This document shows, in pieces, positions 1 through 3,398 of a DNA stretch of 3,398 nt (within the stretch, counting starts at the first letter, position 1; each line of letters starts with the position of its first letter). The position numbers and the translations under genes were made by a program. The stretch is from Escherichia phage MS2: sequence record JQ966308.1. The stretch is one strand, 5' to 3'. The notes below the pieces were generated by a model, which made no database searches, was not told the DNA's origin, and saw only the letters and a program-made list of their open reading frames with translations.

Positions 1-4
1 ACTC

Positions 5-1186
5 ATGCGAGCTTTTAGTGTCCTTGATCAGGAGTCCGAGACCTTCGTCCCTAGCGTCCGCGTTTATGCGGACGGGCAGGTCGAAGATAACTCGTTTTCC
101 CTAAAATACCGCTCGAACTGGACTCCCGGTCGATTTAATTCGACCGGGTCTAGAACGGAACAGTGGCACTATCCGTCCCCTTATTCTAGGGGTGCGCTCA
201 GTGTCACATCGGTAGATCAAGGTGCCTACAAGCGCTCTGGGTCATCGTGGGGTCGCCCGTACGAGGAGAAAGCCGGTTTTGGCTTCTCACTCGACGCACG
301 TTCCTGCTATAGCCTCTTCCCTGTTAGTCAGAATCTGACTTACATCGAAGTGCCGCAGAACGTTGCGAACCGGGCGTCGACCGAAGTCCTGCAGAAGGTC
401 ACTCAAGGAAATTTCAACCTTGGTGTGGCCCTAGCAGAGGCCAGGTCGACAGCCTCACAACTCGCGACGCAAACCATTGCGCTCGTGAAGGCGTACACTG
501 CCGCTCGTCGCGGCAATTGGCGCCAGACGCTCCGCTATCTTGCCCTAAACGAAGATCGGAAGTTCCGATCGAAACACGTGGCAGGCAGGTGGTTGGAGTT
601 GCAGTTCGGCTGGCTACCGCTCATGAGCGATATCCAGGGCGCATATGAGATGCTTACGAAGGTTCACCTTCAAGAGTTTCTTCCTATGAGGGCCGTACGG
701 CAAGTGGGCACTAACATTAAGTTAGATGGCCGTTTGTCGTATCCAGCTGCAAACTACCAGACTACGTGCAACATATCACGACGAATCGTGATATGGTTTT
801 ACATAAACGATGCACGTTTGGCCTGGTTGTCGTCTCTAGGTATCTTGAACCCACTAGGTATAGTGTGGGAAAAGGTGCCTTTCTCATTCGTTGTCGACTG
901 GCTCCTTCCTGTTGGGAACATGCTCGAGGGCCTCACAGCCCCCGTAGGATGCTCCTACATGTCTGGAACAGTTACTGACGTAATAACGGGTGAGTCCATC
1001 ATAAGCGTCGACGCTCCCTATGGGTGGACGGTGGATAGACAGGGCACTGCTAAGGCCCAAGTCTCAGCCATGCATCGAGGGGTGCAATCCGTATGGCCAA
1101 CAACTGGCGTATACGTGAAGTCACCTTTCTCGATGGTCCATACCTTAGACGCGTTGGCATTAATCAGGCAACGGCTCTTAAGATAG
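5..1186 (+). CDS. mat: Maturation (A / assembly) protein of an MS2-like ssRNA phage, 393 aa; pilus-binding attachment protein present at one copy per virion
   Basis: Full-length ORF from ATG at 5-7 to TAG at 1184-1186. The translation (MRAFS...LDARSCYSLFPVSQNLTYIEVPQNVANRAS...IRQRLLR) matches my recollection of the MS2 A protein over nearly its whole length and is the same size (393 aa). It is the first gene, as in all leviviruses. Confidence 0.93.
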   Translation: MRAFSVLDQESETFVPSVRVYADGQVEDNSFSLKYRSNWTPGRFNSTGSRTEQWHYPSPYSRGALSVTSVDQGAYKRSGSSWGRPYEEKAGFGFSLDARSCYSLFPVSQNLTYIEVPQNVANRASTEVLQKVTQGNFNLGVALAEARSTASQLATQTIALVKAYTAARRGNWRQTLRYLALNEDRKFRSKHVAGRWLELQFGWLPLMSDIQGAYEMLTKVHLQEFLPMRAVRQVGTNIKLDGRLSYPAANYQTTCNISRRIVIWFYINDARLAWLSSLGILNPLGIVWEKVPFSFVVDWLLPVGNMLEGLTAPVGCSYMSGTVTDVITGESIISVDAPYGWTVDRQGTAKAQVSAMHRGVQSVWPTTGVYVKSPFSMVHTLDALALIRQRLLR

Positions 1187-1197
1187 AGCCCTCAACC

Positions 1198-1217
1198 GGA
1201 GTTCGAAGCATGGCTTC
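1198..1217 (+). promoter_or_regulatory. Coat gene ribosome-binding region: Shine-Dalgarno GGAG plus a small initiator hairpin presenting the AUG in its loop
   Basis: GGAG at 1198-1201 lies 8 nt upstream of ATG 1210. GAAGC (1205-1209) and GCTTC (1213-1217) are perfectly complementary and flank the ATG, as in the known MS2 coat initiation hairpin. Confidence 0.7.
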
Positions 1218-1602
1218 TAACTTTACTCAGTTCGTTCTCGTCGACAATGGCGGAACTGGCGACGTGACTGTCGCTCCAAGCAACTTCGCTAACGGGGTCG
1301 CTGAATGGATTAGCTCTAACTCACGTTCTCAGGCTTACAAAGTAACCTGTAGCGTTCGTCAGAGCTCTGCGCAGAACCGCAAGTACACCATTAAGGTTGA
1401 GGTACCAAAAGTGGCTACCCAAACCGTCGGTGGTGTACAGCTTCCTGTAGCCGCATGGCGTTCGTACTTGAATATGGAATTAACTATTCCTATTTTCGCA
1501 ACGAACGACGATTGCGCGCTTATTGTTAAGGCGATGCAAGGTCTCCTAAAAGATGGAAACCCGATCCCCTCAGCAATCGCAGCAAACTCCGGAATCTACT
1601 AA
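1210..1602 (+). CDS. cp: Major coat (capsid) protein, 130 aa including the initiator Met; also the translational repressor of the replicase gene
   Basis: ATG at 1210-1212 lies inside the longer tabulated ORF 1093..1602. The translation MASNFTQFVLVDNGGTGDVTVAPSNFANGVAEWISSNSRSQAYKVTCSVRQSS... is the MS2 coat sequence apart from about three substitutions (Q at codon 1438-1440, D at 1507-1509, A at 1516-1518). GGAG at 1198-1201 is a plausible Shine-Dalgarno. The ORF ends with tandem stops TAA TAG (1600-1605). Confidence 0.96.
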   Translation: MASNFTQFVLVDNGGTGDVTVAPSNFANGVAEWISSNSRSQAYKVTCSVRQSSAQNRKYTIKVEVPKVATQTVGGVQLPVAAWRSYLNMELTIPIFATNDDCALIVKAMQGLLKDGNPIPSAIAANSGIY

Positions 1603-1780
1603 TAGATTCCGTCCATTCCAACATGAGGATTACCCATGTCGAAGACAACAAAGAAGTTCAACTCTTTATGTATTGATCTTCCTCGCGATCTTTCTCTCGA
1701 AATTTACCAATCAATTGCTTCTGTCGCTACTGGAAGCGGTGATCCGCACAGTAGAGACTTTACAGCAATTGCTTACCTAA
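1553..1780 (+). CDS. lys: Lysis protein L, 75 aa single-gene lysis protein (Sgl) with a basic N-terminal region and a hydrophobic C-terminal membrane domain
   Basis: ORF from ATG 1553 to TAA 1778-1780 in the +1 frame relative to coat and replicase. It overlaps the coat 3' end by 50 nt and the replicase 5' end by 145 nt. The translation METRSPQQSQQTPESTNRFRPFQHEDYPCRRQQRSSTLYVLIFLAIFLSKFTNQLLLSLLEAVIRTVETLQQLLT is nearly identical to my recollection of MS2 L, with the same length and position. Confidence 0.92.
   Translation: METRSPQQSQQTPESTNRFRPFQHEDYPCRRQQRSSTLYVLIFLAIFLSKFTNQLLLSLLEAVIRTVETLQQLLT
1600..1605 (+). terminator. Tandem in-frame translational stop codons (UAA UAG) ending the coat gene
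   Basis: TAA at 1600-1602 is followed immediately by TAG at 1603-1605 in the coat frame, the same arrangement as in MS2. Confidence 0.85.
1621..1639 (+). promoter_or_regulatory. Translational operator (TR) hairpin: coat-protein binding site that represses replicase translation and nucleates packaging
   Basis: ACATGAGGATTACCCATGT folds as stem 1621-1625/1635-1639 plus 1627-1628/1633-1634, with a bulged A at 1626 and a 4-nt loop ATTA at 1629-1632. The replicase ATG (1636-1638) is in the 3' arm and the GAGGA Shine-Dalgarno (1625-1629) in the 5' arm. The sequence is identical to the MS2 operator as I recall it. Confidence 0.93.
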
Positions 1781-3273
1781 GAGATGAGTTGCTTACTAAG
1801 CATCCATCATTGGGCAATGGTAATGACGAGGCGACCCGCCGGGCTCTAGCTATTGCTAAGCTCCGGGAGGCGAATGAGCGATGTGGCCAGATTAATAGAG
1901 AAGGTTTCTTACATGACAAATCCTTGTCATGGGATCCGGATGTTTTACAAACCAGCATCCGTAGCCTTATTGGCAACCTCCTCTCTGGCTATCGTTCGTC
2001 GTTGTTTGGGCAATGCACGTTCTCCAACGGTGCCTCGATGGGGCACAAGTTGCAGGATGCAGCGCCTTACAAGAAGTTCGCTGAACAAGCAACCGTTACC
2101 CCCCGCGCTCTGAGAGCGGCTCTACTGGTCCGAGACCAGTGTGCGCCGTGGATCAGACACGCGGTCCACTACAGCGAGTCATATGAATTTAGGCTCGTCG
2201 TAGGGAACGGAGTGTTCACAGTTCCGAAGAATAATAAAATAGATCGGGCTGCCTGTAAGGAGCCAGATGCGAACATGTACCTTCAGAAAGGGGTTGGTGG
2301 CTTCATACGCCGCCGCCTCCGTTCTATCGGTATCGACCTGAATGATCAAACGATCAATCAACGTCTTGCAAAACTCGGCAGTATCGATGGTTCTTTAGCG
2401 ACGATAGATTTATCGTCTGCTTCTGACTCCATATCGGACCGCCTTGTTTGGGAGTTTCTCCCACCGCAAATGTATGCGTACCTGTCTAAAATTCGTTCGC
2501 CACGAGGAATCGTTGACGGACGTATGATCGACTGGCACCTATTTTCCACTATGGGTAATGGATTTACCTTTGAACTAGAGTCCATGATCTTTTGGGCAAT
2601 AGTTAAGGCAACCATGACTCATTTTGGTAACCTTGGAACAATTGGCATCTATGGGGACGATATCATATGTCCCACAGAGATTGCACCTCGTGTGCTAGAG
2701 GCTCTCAGCTTCTACGGTTTTAAACCGAATCAGTCGAAGACGTTCATCACGGGTCGCTTTCGCGAGTCCTGTGGTGCACATTACTTCGGCGGTGCTGATT
2801 GCAAACCGATTTATATCAAGAAACCCGTTAACAACCTCTTCGCCGTCTGTCTGTTACTTAACAGACTGCGCGGCTGGGGTGTTGTGAACGGTGTGTCAGA
2901 TCCTCGCCTCTTCGAGACTTGGAAATGGCTATCCGAACGTGTTCCCTCGATACTTTTCGGTGGGTCAAACCTTGATGCAGACTATTACGTGGTCAGCCGC
3001 CAGGAAGCCAGGAAGCGTTGCGAGGATCATCCAGTATATGGACGTACCCTTGCTCATTTCCACAGCTCTCCTCATCGGTTGTACCGCGTACCCGCCTCTA
3101 AACGCGAATTTTCTTCGCGCGAAGAGTCCGGTCGCCTCATCACTTGGTACCATAATGGCGGTCAAATTATTGACACCACTACGACCCCAAGGGTTCGCCT
3201 TGTGCGAACATCGGAATGGCTAGCGGTAGTGCCATCCTTCCCTCAGGAAGATGACACACGCGAGCTCTCCTAG
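1636..3273 (+). CDS. rep: RNA-dependent RNA polymerase (replicase beta subunit), 545 aa
   Basis: ORF from ATG 1636 to TAG 3271-3273. The N-terminus MSKTTKKFNSLCIDLPRDLSLEIYQSIASVATGSGDPH... matches the MS2 replicase. RdRp motifs are present: motif A TIDLSSASDSISD (2401-2439), motif B MGNGFTFELES (2551-2583) and motif C YGDD (2650-2661). It has the same length as the MS2 replicase, but the C-terminal roughly 120 aa are noticeably diverged. Confidence 0.96.
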   Translation: MSKTTKKFNSLCIDLPRDLSLEIYQSIASVATGSGDPHSRDFTAIAYLRDELLTKHPSLGNGNDEATRRALAIAKLREANERCGQINREGFLHDKSLSWDPDVLQTSIRSLIGNLLSGYRSSLFGQCTFSNGASMGHKLQDAAPYKKFAEQATVTPRALRAALLVRDQCAPWIRHAVHYSESYEFRLVVGNGVFTVPKNNKIDRAACKEPDANMYLQKGVGGFIRRRLRSIGIDLNDQTINQRLAKLGSIDGSLATIDLSSASDSISDRLVWEFLPPQMYAYLSKIRSPRGIVDGRMIDWHLFSTMGNGFTFELESMIFWAIVKATMTHFGNLGTIGIYGDDIICPTEIAPRVLEALSFYGFKPNQSKTFITGRFRESCGAHYFGGADCKPIYIKKPVNNLFAVCLLLNRLRGWGVVNGVSDPRLFETWKWLSERVPSILFGGSNLDADYYVVSRQEARKRCEDHPVYGRTLAHFHSSPHRLYRVPASKREFSSREESGRLITWYHNGGQIIDTTTTPRVRLVRTSEWLAVVPSFPQEDDTRELS

Positions 3274-3398
3274 TCAGCACGGCTAGGGACCCCCGTAATC
3301 GGGGTGGGTGCCGCGAAAGCGGCTATTCATCGTAACAACGATGGATAGGAGTAACCTCCTAATTCGGTGACTAACTTTGCTTGGCTAGTCACCACCCA
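3274..3398 (+). other. 3' untranslated region of the phage genome, 125 nt, with a series of short hairpins and the levivirus 3' terminus ...ACCACCCA
   Basis: Perfect small stem-loops are visible: 3291-3295/3300-3304 (CCCCG/CGGGG, loop TAAT), 3310-3314/3319-3323 (GCCGC/GCGGC, GAAA tetraloop), 3328-3332/3339-3343 (CATCG/CGATG), and 3347-3351/3356-3360 (AGGAG/CTCCT, loop TAAC). The window ends in CCCA. Confidence 0.85.
3366..3398 (+). promoter_or_regulatory. 3'-terminal hairpin plus single-stranded ACCCA tail; likely the replicase initiation site for minus-strand synthesis
   Basis: GGTGACTA (3366-3373) pairs perfectly with TAGTCACC (3386-3393), an 8-bp stem with a 12-nt loop, followed by unpaired ACCCA (3394-3398). 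Levivirus genomes end in CCCA with a terminal hairpin immediately upstream. Confidence 0.75.

What the first reader, a model, noticed from the sequence alone, without database searches (positions are those of the whole stretch)
1304..1618. Long-range complementarity between the coat coding region and the sequence just upstream of the operator (Min Jou-type interaction), possibly in a shifted register
GAATGGA at 1304-1310 inside the coat gene is perfectly complementary to TCCATTC at 1612-1618, just 5' of the operator hairpin. In MS2 a 7-bp long-distance pairing between these two regions (as I recall, UGAAUGG with CCAUUCA) blocks the replicase start until ribosomes translating the coat gene open it. 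Here the downstream partner reads CCATTCC where MS2 has CCAUUCA, so the MS2 register would lose one pair. A register shifted by one nucleotide restores 7 contiguous base pairs, which looks like compensatory maintenance of the interaction.
Basis: partly seen in the sequence, partly recalled or inferred. Interest (0 to 1): 0.4.

Follow-up and report, generated by a model that had tools for sequence, protein, structure and literature searches.

The report
Min Jou pairing, one pair moved
This is the well-known long-range RNA pairing that stops an MS2-type phage from making its replicase until ribosomes translate the coat gene; in this strain the helix keeps the same six core pairs, has lost one end pair and has a new pair at the other end, which is a minor strain variant and not a new mechanism.

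Summary
The window is an MS2-like levivirus (Emesvirus zinderi, DL52/DL54 'JS' type). Window coordinate + 125 gives the MS2 coordinate. It sits exactly at the MS2 Min Jou (MJ) site, 1427-1433/1738-1744.

It is not a register shift. Six pairs (G1303-G1308 with C1613-C1618) join the same nucleotides as in MS2. The outer U-A pair is lost (MS2 A1744 is C1619 here). An inner A1309-U1612 pair exists because MS2 G1737 is U here. In MS2 and J20 that G is predicted to close the adjacent coat-terminator hairpin, so the helix junction moves by one nucleotide.

Folding places the helix in the MFE (core pairs p 0.93-0.99, new pair about 0.85).

Selected compensation is not supported:
- 16 of 25 natural group-I genomes carry C1744 with only 6 bp.
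- The U variant has one wild origin (window, DL52, DL16).
- The same G-to-U change also appears in two lab-evolved MS2 lines that still have A1744.

Verdict: a known mechanism in a known strain type. The recurrence of G1737U is a modest lead.

The parts
1303..1309 (+). 5' arm of the Min Jou helix, GAAUGGA. It lies inside the coat ORF at codons 32-34 counting Met as 1: GAA (Glu), UGG (Trp) and the first base of AUU (Ile). It corresponds to MS2 1428-1434.
   Evidence: It is paired in the MFE and centroid structures. Positions 1303-1308 are invariant in 20 group-I sequences.
1612..1618 (+). 3' arm of the Min Jou helix, UCCAUUC. It lies between the coat stop codon and the operator hairpin and corresponds to MS2 1737-1743. 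U1612 is the lineage-specific base (G in MS2, J20 and fr). The G-to-U change is synonymous in the lysis frame (CGG to CGU, Arg).
   Evidence: C1613-C1618 are invariant in group I, including fr.
1619..1619 (+). C at the position of MS2 A1744. It faces U1302, so the outermost MS2 pair (U1427-A1744) is absent. In the lysis frame it changes the codon from AAA (Lys) to CAA (Gln).
   Evidence: C is the commonest state among wild strains.
1590..1611 (+). Coat-terminator (CT) hairpin. It has 9 bp (1590-1598 with 1603-1611) and encloses the coat stop codons UAA UAG. It abuts the 3' arm of the MJ helix. In MS2 and J20 it has one more closing pair (C1714-G1737), which this strain lacks.
   Evidence: MFE structures. 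Covariation at window positions 1594/1609 (alignment columns 319/334), with pair types AU, CG, GC, UA and GU. The adjacency of CT, MJ and TR is described in PMC11979748.
1621..1639 (+). Replicase operator (TR) hairpin, ACAUGAGGAUUACCCAUGU. It contains the Shine-Dalgarno-like GAGGA (1625-1629) and the replicase AUG (1636-1638).
   Evidence: Rfam RF02359 matches 1604-1639 at 59.6 bits, E = 8.6e-13. All 7 pairs are invariant.
1210..1602 (+). Coat protein ORF. Ribosomes translating it pass through the 5' arm at codons 32-34.
   Evidence: The coat protein is identical to that of DL16 and of many wild contigs.
1636..3273 (+). Replicase ORF, the gene whose start is controlled by this pairing.
1553..1780 (+). 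Lysis ORF. It overlaps the 3' arm and so places a weak coding constraint on 1612-1619.

Best explanation
The two segments are the strain's version of the Min Jou (MJ) long-distance interaction of MS2-type phages.

Structure. The coat-gene segment G1303-A1309 pairs with U1612-C1618, directly 5' of the replicase operator hairpin. It is stacked between the coat-terminator hairpin (1590-1611) and the operator hairpin (1621-1639).

Mechanism. Ribosomes translating coat codons 32-34 unwind the 5' arm and transiently free the replicase start. Later, a coat dimer bound to the operator shuts it again.

Difference from MS2. The pairing register is the same as in MS2, with six identical core pairs. The outer U-A pair is missing because MS2 A1744 is C here. 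One inner A-U pair (A1309-U1612) is present because MS2 G1737 is U here. That nucleotide leaves the closing pair of the neighbouring coat-terminator hairpin and joins the MJ helix, so the junction between the two helices moves by one.

Shown here: homology, complementarity, the predicted structure, and the pattern of conservation and variation.

Inferred from MS2 work: the translational-coupling function.

Undetermined: whether the extra pair was selected. I think it is more likely a tolerated or mildly advantageous tuning variant than a specific repair of the lost pair.
For: - Identity of the genome: 96.8% to MS2 isolate DL52 overall and 100% over 1200-1700. The gene order and spacing match MS2, with an offset of 125.
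- MJ coordinates in MS2 are 1427-1433/1738-1744 (PMC11339067 and PMC12143590), which map to window 1302-1308/1613-1619.
- Rfam finds the MS2 operator at 1604-1639.
- RNAfold in three sequence contexts puts the helix in the MFE. Core pairs have p = 0.93-0.99, A1309-U1612 has p = 0.83-0.87, and U1310.G1611 has p = 0.25. The tool's MFE and centroid structures agree, with region z = -6.3.
- Junction migration is seen by comparing the window with the MS2 and J20 folds.
- The six core pairs are invariant in 20 group-I sequences, including fr, whose flanks have diverged.
- Group II phages have an equivalent helix with a different sequence (GCUUUC/GAAAGC). Its 5' arm lies 5 nt further 3', p > 0.94, and it is 6 bp in GA/DL10/DL20 and 7 bp in KU1/T72.
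- Model energetics: freeing the 5' arm costs 7.3 kcal/mol here, 3.8-5.4 in wild 6-bp strains and 4.3-6.2 in MS2-type strains.
Against: - There is no experimental structure or translation data for this strain.
- Within group I the core pairs never vary, so they give no covariation evidence either way.
- Cryo-EM of MS2 virions has not resolved MJ in packaged RNA (PMC12143590), so the helix is a state of the translating or free RNA.
- Thermodynamic predictions for a 436-682 nt RNA are only models.
Confidence: 0.85

Rival explanations
1. The G-to-U change at 1612 was selected specifically to compensate for the pair lost through the A-to-C change at 1619, restoring a 7-bp helix.
For: - The U1612 clade (window, DL52, DL16) is nested inside the C1619 clade, so U arose on a 6-bp background.
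- No natural genome carries both seventh pairs.
- The model gives +1.9 kcal/mol for U1612, against -0.9 to -1.0 for losing the outer pair.
- Position 1744 is functionally sensitive in MS2: A1744G is a non-viable 'cheater' (PMC11979748).
Against: - 16 of 25 natural group-I genomes, all from plaque isolates or abundant wild contigs, have C1744 with G1737 and only 6 bp. Compensation is therefore not required.
- There is a single wild origin, so n = 1.
- The polarity of A versus C at 1744 is ambiguous. The outgroup fr has C.
- The same G1737U change appears in two lab lines that retain A1744.
- The change costs a C-G closing pair in the coat-terminator hairpin.
Confidence: 0.2
2. G1737U (window U1612) is a generally advantageous or condition-dependent tuning mutation of the CT/MJ junction. 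It tightens coat-replicase coupling or loosens the coat-terminator hairpin, independently of the state at 1744.
For: - There are three independent origins: one wild clade, lab line 2 at generation 20 (clones L2.G20.1 and L2.G20.11), and lab line 3 at generations 60-70 (at least 9 clones).
- It is a transversion that is synonymous in the lysis frame, so an RNA-level effect is the obvious candidate.
- The model gives about +2.2 kcal/mol on either background.
- The coat-terminator hairpin is reported to influence replication (PMC11979748).
Against: - It stays polymorphic in the lab lines and is not seen in the later line-2 clones in the database.
- Most wild strains lack it.
- The paper describing those lines (Betancourt 2009) could not be read, so hitch-hiking or a mutational hotspot cannot be excluded.
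Confidence: 0.3
3. The extra pair is a neutral polymorphism. The site is weakly constrained and U1612 drifted to fixation in one lineage. The A1309-U1612 pair is incidental.
For: - The change is synonymous in the lysis frame and lies outside the coat and replicase ORFs.
- The neighbouring positions MS2 1732-1734 are highly variable.
- The 6-bp and 7-bp forms coexist in both genogroups.
Against: - The same transversion recurs in two lab lines.
- It breaks the closing pair of a hairpin that is otherwise maintained by covariation.
Confidence: 0.4
4. The complementarity is chance and the segments do not pair in vivo.
For: A 7-mer complement is common: there are 378 such pairs in the window.
Against: - The site is positionally homologous to an experimentally supported MS2 interaction.
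- It is in the MFE with p > 0.9 in every group-I strain context tested except fr fragments.
- The 3' arm is conserved in fr despite diverged flanks.
- An equivalent helix exists in group II.
Confidence: 0.03

Closest known systems
Min Jou (MJ) long-distance interaction of phage MS2 (nt 1427-1433 with 1738-1744), which couples replicase translation to coat translation
   Same: - The species is the same (Emesvirus zinderi).
- The homologous positions are the same, with an offset of 125.
- Six of the seven pairs are identical.
- The flanking coat-terminator and operator hairpins are the same.
(PMC11339067, PMC12143590, PMC11979748.)
   Different: - The outer U-A pair is absent (C1619).
- A new inner A1309-U1612 pair is present, with a possible U1310.G1611 wobble.
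- The neighbouring coat-terminator hairpin is one pair shorter.
- The predicted lock is about 1 kcal/mol stronger than in MS2.
MJ site of MS2 isolates DL52 (JQ966307) and DL16 (EF108464)
   Same: Both arms are identical to the window. DL52 is 100% identical over 1200-1700.
   Different: Nothing differs in this region. Elsewhere the window differs from DL52 (96.8% overall, 89% in the last 440 nt). It is probably the sister isolate DL54 (PMC3499819).
Wild 6-bp form of MJ (J20, FrHenna, FrBlood, FrSaffron, LT898437, Hu-Sh, fr, and nine metagenome/Logan contigs)
   Same: These carry the same C at MS2 1744 and the same six core pairs.
   Different: They keep G1737, which closes the coat-terminator hairpin, so they have no seventh pair.
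Equivalent coat/replicase helix of genogroup II phages (GA, KU1, DL10, DL20, T72)
   Same: - The architecture is the same: the coat codons around Trp32 pair with the segment just 5' of the operator.
- The 6-bp versus 7-bp polymorphism at the inner end is also present.

   Different: - The sequence differs (GCUUUC/GAAAGC).
- The 5' arm is displaced 5 nt towards the 3' end. That is a true register change, unlike the window.
Lab-evolved MS2 clones carrying G1737U (FJ799553, FJ799563, FJ799679-681, FJ799700, FJ799704-708)
   Same: They carry the same G-to-U substitution at the CT/MJ junction.
   Different: They are on the A1744 background, so the predicted helix is 8 bp. They arose in experimental lines, not in nature.

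Membership tests
Min Jou long-distance interaction (MS2-type coat-replicase translational coupling) | The 5' arm lies inside the coat ORF at the position homologous to MS2 1427-1433 (around the Glu-Trp codons). | tested here: met
   GAAUGGA at 1303-1309 corresponds to MS2 1428-1434 (offset 125; alignments).
Min Jou long-distance interaction (MS2-type coat-replicase translational coupling) | The 3' arm lies immediately 5' of the replicase operator hairpin and ribosome-binding site (MS2 1738-1744). | tested here: met
   UCCAUUC at 1612-1618 is 2 nt upstream of the operator at 1621-1639. Rfam RF02359 matches at E = 8.6e-13.
Min Jou long-distance interaction (MS2-type coat-replicase translational coupling) | The register is the same as in MS2: homologous nucleotides pair with each other. 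| tested here: met
   Six of the seven MS2 pairs are retained nucleotide for nucleotide. Only the terminal pairs differ.
Min Jou long-distance interaction (MS2-type coat-replicase translational coupling) | The helix is thermodynamically plausible in the context of the folded coat-gene domain. | tested here: met
   The helix is in the MFE and centroid structures, with p = 0.93-0.99 in three contexts.
Min Jou long-distance interaction (MS2-type coat-replicase translational coupling) | Comparative support, either conservation or covariation. | tested here: inconclusive
   - Within group I the core is invariant, so there is no covariation. The end pairs change on the 3' side only.
- Between genogroups both arms change and pairing is kept. 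That supports the class, but the alignment between the groups is not column-exact.
Min Jou long-distance interaction (MS2-type coat-replicase translational coupling) | Replicase translation depends on ribosomes passing the 5' arm (polarity of early coat nonsense mutations; derepression by arm mutations). | not testable with these tools
   This is known for MS2 (van Himbergen 1993 and Berkhout & van Duin 1985, as cited in PMC11979748 and PMC12143590; reporter data in PMC11339067). It is not tested for this strain.
Compensatory (covarying) base-pair substitution | Changes on both strands of a pair, or a second change that arises only where the first change has destabilised the helix. | tested here: not met
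   - Only the 3' side changes.
- 16 of 25 genomes with the 'loss' have no second change.
- G1737U also arises on an intact A1744 background.

The most novel reading that the evidence does not exclude
The nucleotide at MS2 1737 (window 1612) may be an evolutionary tuning knob at the junction of the coat-terminator hairpin and the Min Jou helix. G gives it to the hairpin and U gives it to MJ. On this reading the G-to-U switch has been selected repeatedly, once in the wild DL16/DL52/DL54 clade and twice in laboratory MS2 lines, because it tightens coat-replicase coupling by about 2 kcal/mol. Wild MS2-like phages would then sample several settings of replicase repression (6 bp, 7 bp with the outer pair, 7 bp with the inner pair).
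Probability: 0.3. Interest if true: 0.35.

Novelty: already known. Interest (0 to 1): 0.17.

Why it matters
The Min Jou interaction is a textbook case of translational coupling through long-range RNA structure, and it is now reused in synthetic mRNA circuits (PMC11339067). Finding it in another MS2-like strain adds nothing conceptually.

The useful by-products are small:
- Most wild MS2-like genomes carry only a 6-bp core. The 7-bp helix of the laboratory strain is not the natural norm.
- The seventh pair can be supplied at either end.
- One synonymous transversion at the hairpin/MJ junction recurs in nature and in two experimental-evolution lines. That gives a cheap, specific mutation for testing how finely replicase repression is tuned.

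Tried and rejected
- **Register shift.** Rejected. The alignment shows the same homologous nucleotides pair.
- **Polarising A versus C at MS2 1744 with fr as outgroup.** Ambiguous. Every scenario needs two steps, and fr also differs at 1427.
- **Pattern scans for the operator.** The IMG/VR and metagenome scans returned only two lab-type MS2 copies, one diverged levivirus and several unrelated contigs. A coat-protein scan of IMG/VR returned only the same MS2 contig.
- **The diverged levivirus L017 (OGVH01000845.1).** Its fold did not even form the operator hairpin and gave no credible MJ equivalent (p about 0.14), so it is uninformative.
- **Exact-protein look-ups.** The window's maturation protein is found only in DL16 and DL52. 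Its replicase is not on record. No further members of the U1612 clade were found.
- **Primary papers.** Not held in the library: van Himbergen 1993, Licis 1998, Berkhout & van Duin 1985, Betancourt 2009 and Friedman 2009. What I say about them rests on citing papers or on memory.
- **Text search for G1737U/G1737T.** No paper found.
- **Rfam.** It finds only the operator, because no family exists for MJ itself.

Full report
**What the window is**

The 3398-nt window is an almost complete MS2-like levivirus genome. It encodes the maturation protein (5-1186), coat (1210-1602), lysis protein (1553-1780) and replicase (1636-3273).

Megablast gives 96.8% identity over the full length to MS2 isolate DL52 (JQ966307). 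Identity to other Emesvirus zinderi strains is 88-93% over 1-3000. Over 1200-1700 the window is 100% identical to DL52. Window coordinate + 125 gives the MS2 reference coordinate (row H21).

Friedman et al. 2012 (PMC3499819) describe DL52 and its sister isolate DL54 as 96.73% identical recombinant 'JS' strains of 3525 nt. The window is therefore probably DL54 or something very close to it. Its exact replicase is not on record in the protein collection, and its maturation protein occurs only in DL16 and DL52.

**Checking the observation**

Its complement TCCATTC is at 1612-1618.
- A perfect 7-mer complement is not remarkable in itself. The window has 378 such pairs, against 348 +/- 24 in shuffles.
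- It is the only coat-gene 7-mer complementary to the 31 nt upstream of the operator, apart from the local hairpin.
- It falls exactly on the MS2 Min Jou (MJ) site. The literature gives MJ as 1427-1433 pairing with 1738-1744 (PMC11339067 and PMC12143590). That maps to window 1302-1308 and 1613-1619.
- Rfam finds the MS2 operator hairpin at 1604-1639 (59.6 bits, E = 8.6e-13).

**What differs from MS2**

Alignment of both arms shows the 5' arm is unchanged (GCUGAAUGGAU). The 3' side reads CCGUCCAUUCCAA here and CCGGCCAUUCAAA in MS2.

- Six pairs (G1303-G1308 with C1613-C1618) join the same homologous nucleotides as in MS2.
- The outer MS2 pair U1427-A1744 becomes U1302/C1619, which is not a pair.
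- The position that is A1434/G1737 in MS2 (no pair) becomes A1309-U1612.
- A further U1310.G1611 wobble is possible.

So the register has not shifted. The helix has lost a pair at one end and has a new one at the other.

**Folding**

RNAfold was run on three nested contexts (MS2 1132-1813, 1300-1800 and 1335-1770). In every context the helix is in the MFE:

- core pairs: p = 0.93-0.99
- A1309-U1612: p = 0.83-0.87
- the wobble: p = 0.25

The fold tool's MFE and centroid structures agree, and the region is far more stable than shuffles (z = -6.3).

Comparing MFE structures shows what the G-to-U change does. In MS2 and J20, G1737 closes the coat-terminator hairpin (C1714-G1737), which abuts the MJ helix. 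In the window that hairpin is one pair shorter (1590-1611) and the freed nucleotide extends MJ. The junction between two stacked helices has migrated by one nucleotide.

PMC11979748 describes the coat-terminator hairpin, MJ and the TR operator as adjacent elements that all affect replication.

**Model energetics**

I measured the ensemble free-energy cost of forcing the 5' arm to be unpaired, as a ribosome would.

| Sequence | Cost (kcal/mol) |
|---|---|
| Window | 7.3 |
| Window with U1612G (6-bp type) | 5.4 |
| Window with U1612G + C1619A (MS2 type) | 6.3 |
| Window with C1619A (both end pairs) | 8.2 |
| Natural C/U strains | 7.3 |
| Natural A/G strains | 4.3-6.2 |
| Natural C/G strains | 3.8-5.4 (fr 1.6) |

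In the model, U1612 more than offsets the lost outer pair.

**Comparative evidence**

*Within group I.* In 20 group-I sequences (18 distinct) the six core pairs never vary. The outer U-A pair is present in 5 sequences, the inner A-U pair in 2, neither in 11, and both in none. All changes are on the 3' side. There is therefore no true covariation within MJ.

The neighbouring coat-terminator hairpin does show classical covariation at one pair, with types AU, CG, GC, UA and GU.

*Wild contigs.* I looked up contigs that encode exactly the window's coat protein. This returned nine further wild genomes from ENA and Logan assemblies, and all read GGCCAUUCC, which is 6 bp.

*Tally of 25 natural group-I genomes.*

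| State at MS2 1744 / 1737 | Helix | Count | Members |
|---|---|---|---|
| A / G | 7 bp, outer pair | 6 | MS2, ST4, R17, M12, JP501, DL1 |
| C / G | 6 bp | 16 | J20, FrHenna, FrBlood, FrSaffron, LT898437, Hu-Sh, fr, nine contigs |
| C / U | 7 bp, inner pair | 3 | window, DL52, DL16 |

*Phylogeny.* Neighbour-joining trees of the non-recombinant part place the three U-bearing genomes as one clade nested among C/G strains. That implies one origin. Whether A or C is ancestral at 1744 cannot be decided, because fr has C.

*Coding effects.* The G-to-U change is synonymous in the lysis frame (CGG to CGU). The A-to-C change turns the lysis codon AAA (Lys) into CAA (Gln).

*Group II.* GA, DL10, DL20, KU1 and T72 have an equivalent predicted helix, GCUUUC/GAAAGC.

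- It lies just 5' of their operator, with the 5' arm 5 nt further 3' in the coat gene.
- Its pairing probability is above 0.94.
- It is 6 bp in GA, DL10 and DL20, and 7 bp in KU1 and T72.

That is a genuine register change between genogroups. It also shows the same inner-end length polymorphism.

**An unexpected parallel**

While checking short-query hits I found that the identical G1737U substitution occurs in 11 GenBank clones from an MS2 experimental-evolution series (host TOP10 F'). All are on the laboratory A1744 background.

- Line 2, generation 20: clones L2.G20.1 and L2.G20.11.
- Line 3, generations 60 and 70: L3.G60.3 and two neighbouring accessions, L3.G70.3 and L3.G70.10. By accession order, also L3.G70.7, 8, 9 and 11.

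The substitution has therefore arisen at least three times: once in the wild and twice in the laboratory. In the laboratory cases no outer pair had been lost.

The model gives about +2.2 kcal/mol for G1737U on either background.

The paper describing these lines (Betancourt 2009) is not held, so I cannot say whether the substitution was measured as beneficial.

Position 1744 is independently known to be sensitive. A1744G is a non-viable 'cheater' in MS2, with an inferred MJ defect (PMC11979748). My fold gives MJ p = 0.19 for that mutant. Even so, C1744 is the commonest wild state.

**Interpretation**

The feature is the Min Jou interaction and almost certainly works as in MS2. The closed helix hides the replicase start, and ribosomes crossing coat codons 32-34 open it.

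The structural facts are shown here. The function is inferred from MS2 genetics and reporter work (PMC11339067; and van Himbergen 1993 and Berkhout & van Duin 1985, as cited in PMC11979748 and PMC12143590).

- Most wild strains live with 6 bp.
- The U variant arose only once in the wild.
- The same change appears where there was nothing to compensate.

Two readings remain open. G1737U may be a neutral polymorphism. Or it may be a recurrently favoured adjustment of the hairpin/MJ junction. The triple origin of a synonymous transversion leans mildly towards the second.

**Novelty**

Both the mechanism and the strain type are already known, and the exact sequence of this region is in GenBank (DL52, DL16). 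I could not find any paper commenting on the natural 6-bp versus 7-bp variation or on G1737U. That is a minor observation, not a new kind of element.

Noticed in passing
window 2960-3398: The last ~440 nt (the replicase C-terminus and the 3' UTR) are only 89% identical to DL52 and about 70% identical to MS2 and fr over a partial stretch. The exact replicase protein is not on record in the protein collection. This fits the recombinant 'JS' strains of PMC3499819, whose other parent is unknown.
   Followed up: partly
window 1594/1609 (alignment A1 columns 319/334; MS2 1718/1733): One pair of the coat-terminator hairpin shows textbook covariation across group-I strains, with pair types A-U, C-G, G-C, U-A and G.U. 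That is much stronger comparative support than exists for MJ itself.
   Followed up: yes
L040, L042-L045 (FJ799707, FJ799553, FJ799563, FJ799679, FJ799700), at MS2 nt 1737: G1737U, the same change as window U1612, is present in 11 clones from two independent lines of an MS2 experimental-evolution series, on the A1744 background. The source paper could not be read.
   Followed up: partly
L010, L024-L027 (GA, KU1, DL10, DL20, T72): Group II phages have an equivalent predicted long-range helix, GCUUUC/GAAAGC, with the 5' arm shifted 5 nt. It is 7 bp in KU1 and T72 and 6 bp in GA, DL10 and DL20.
   Followed up: yes
L003 (MS2 reference) nt 1744: In silico, A1744G drops the predicted MJ pairing probability from 0.97 to 0.19. 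A1744G is the 'full cheater' mutation reported in PMC11979748, whereas A1744C (the wild state) lowers it only to about 0.87.
   Followed up: partly
L017 (OGVH01000845.1) 2309-2750: This metagenome contig encodes a diverged MS2-like coat protein (it keeps the NGVAEW and RKYTIK motifs) and carries an exact fr-type operator 19-mer. No convincing Min Jou equivalent was predicted.
   Followed up: partly
L015, L018-L021: Five other metagenome contigs carry an exact MS2- or fr-type operator 19-mer. Their upstream context does not resemble MS2. What they are was not examined.
   Followed up: no
window 1-5: The window starts at MS2 nt 126, four bases before the maturation AUG. The 5' UTR, including the 5' hairpin, is therefore absent from the window.
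   Followed up: no
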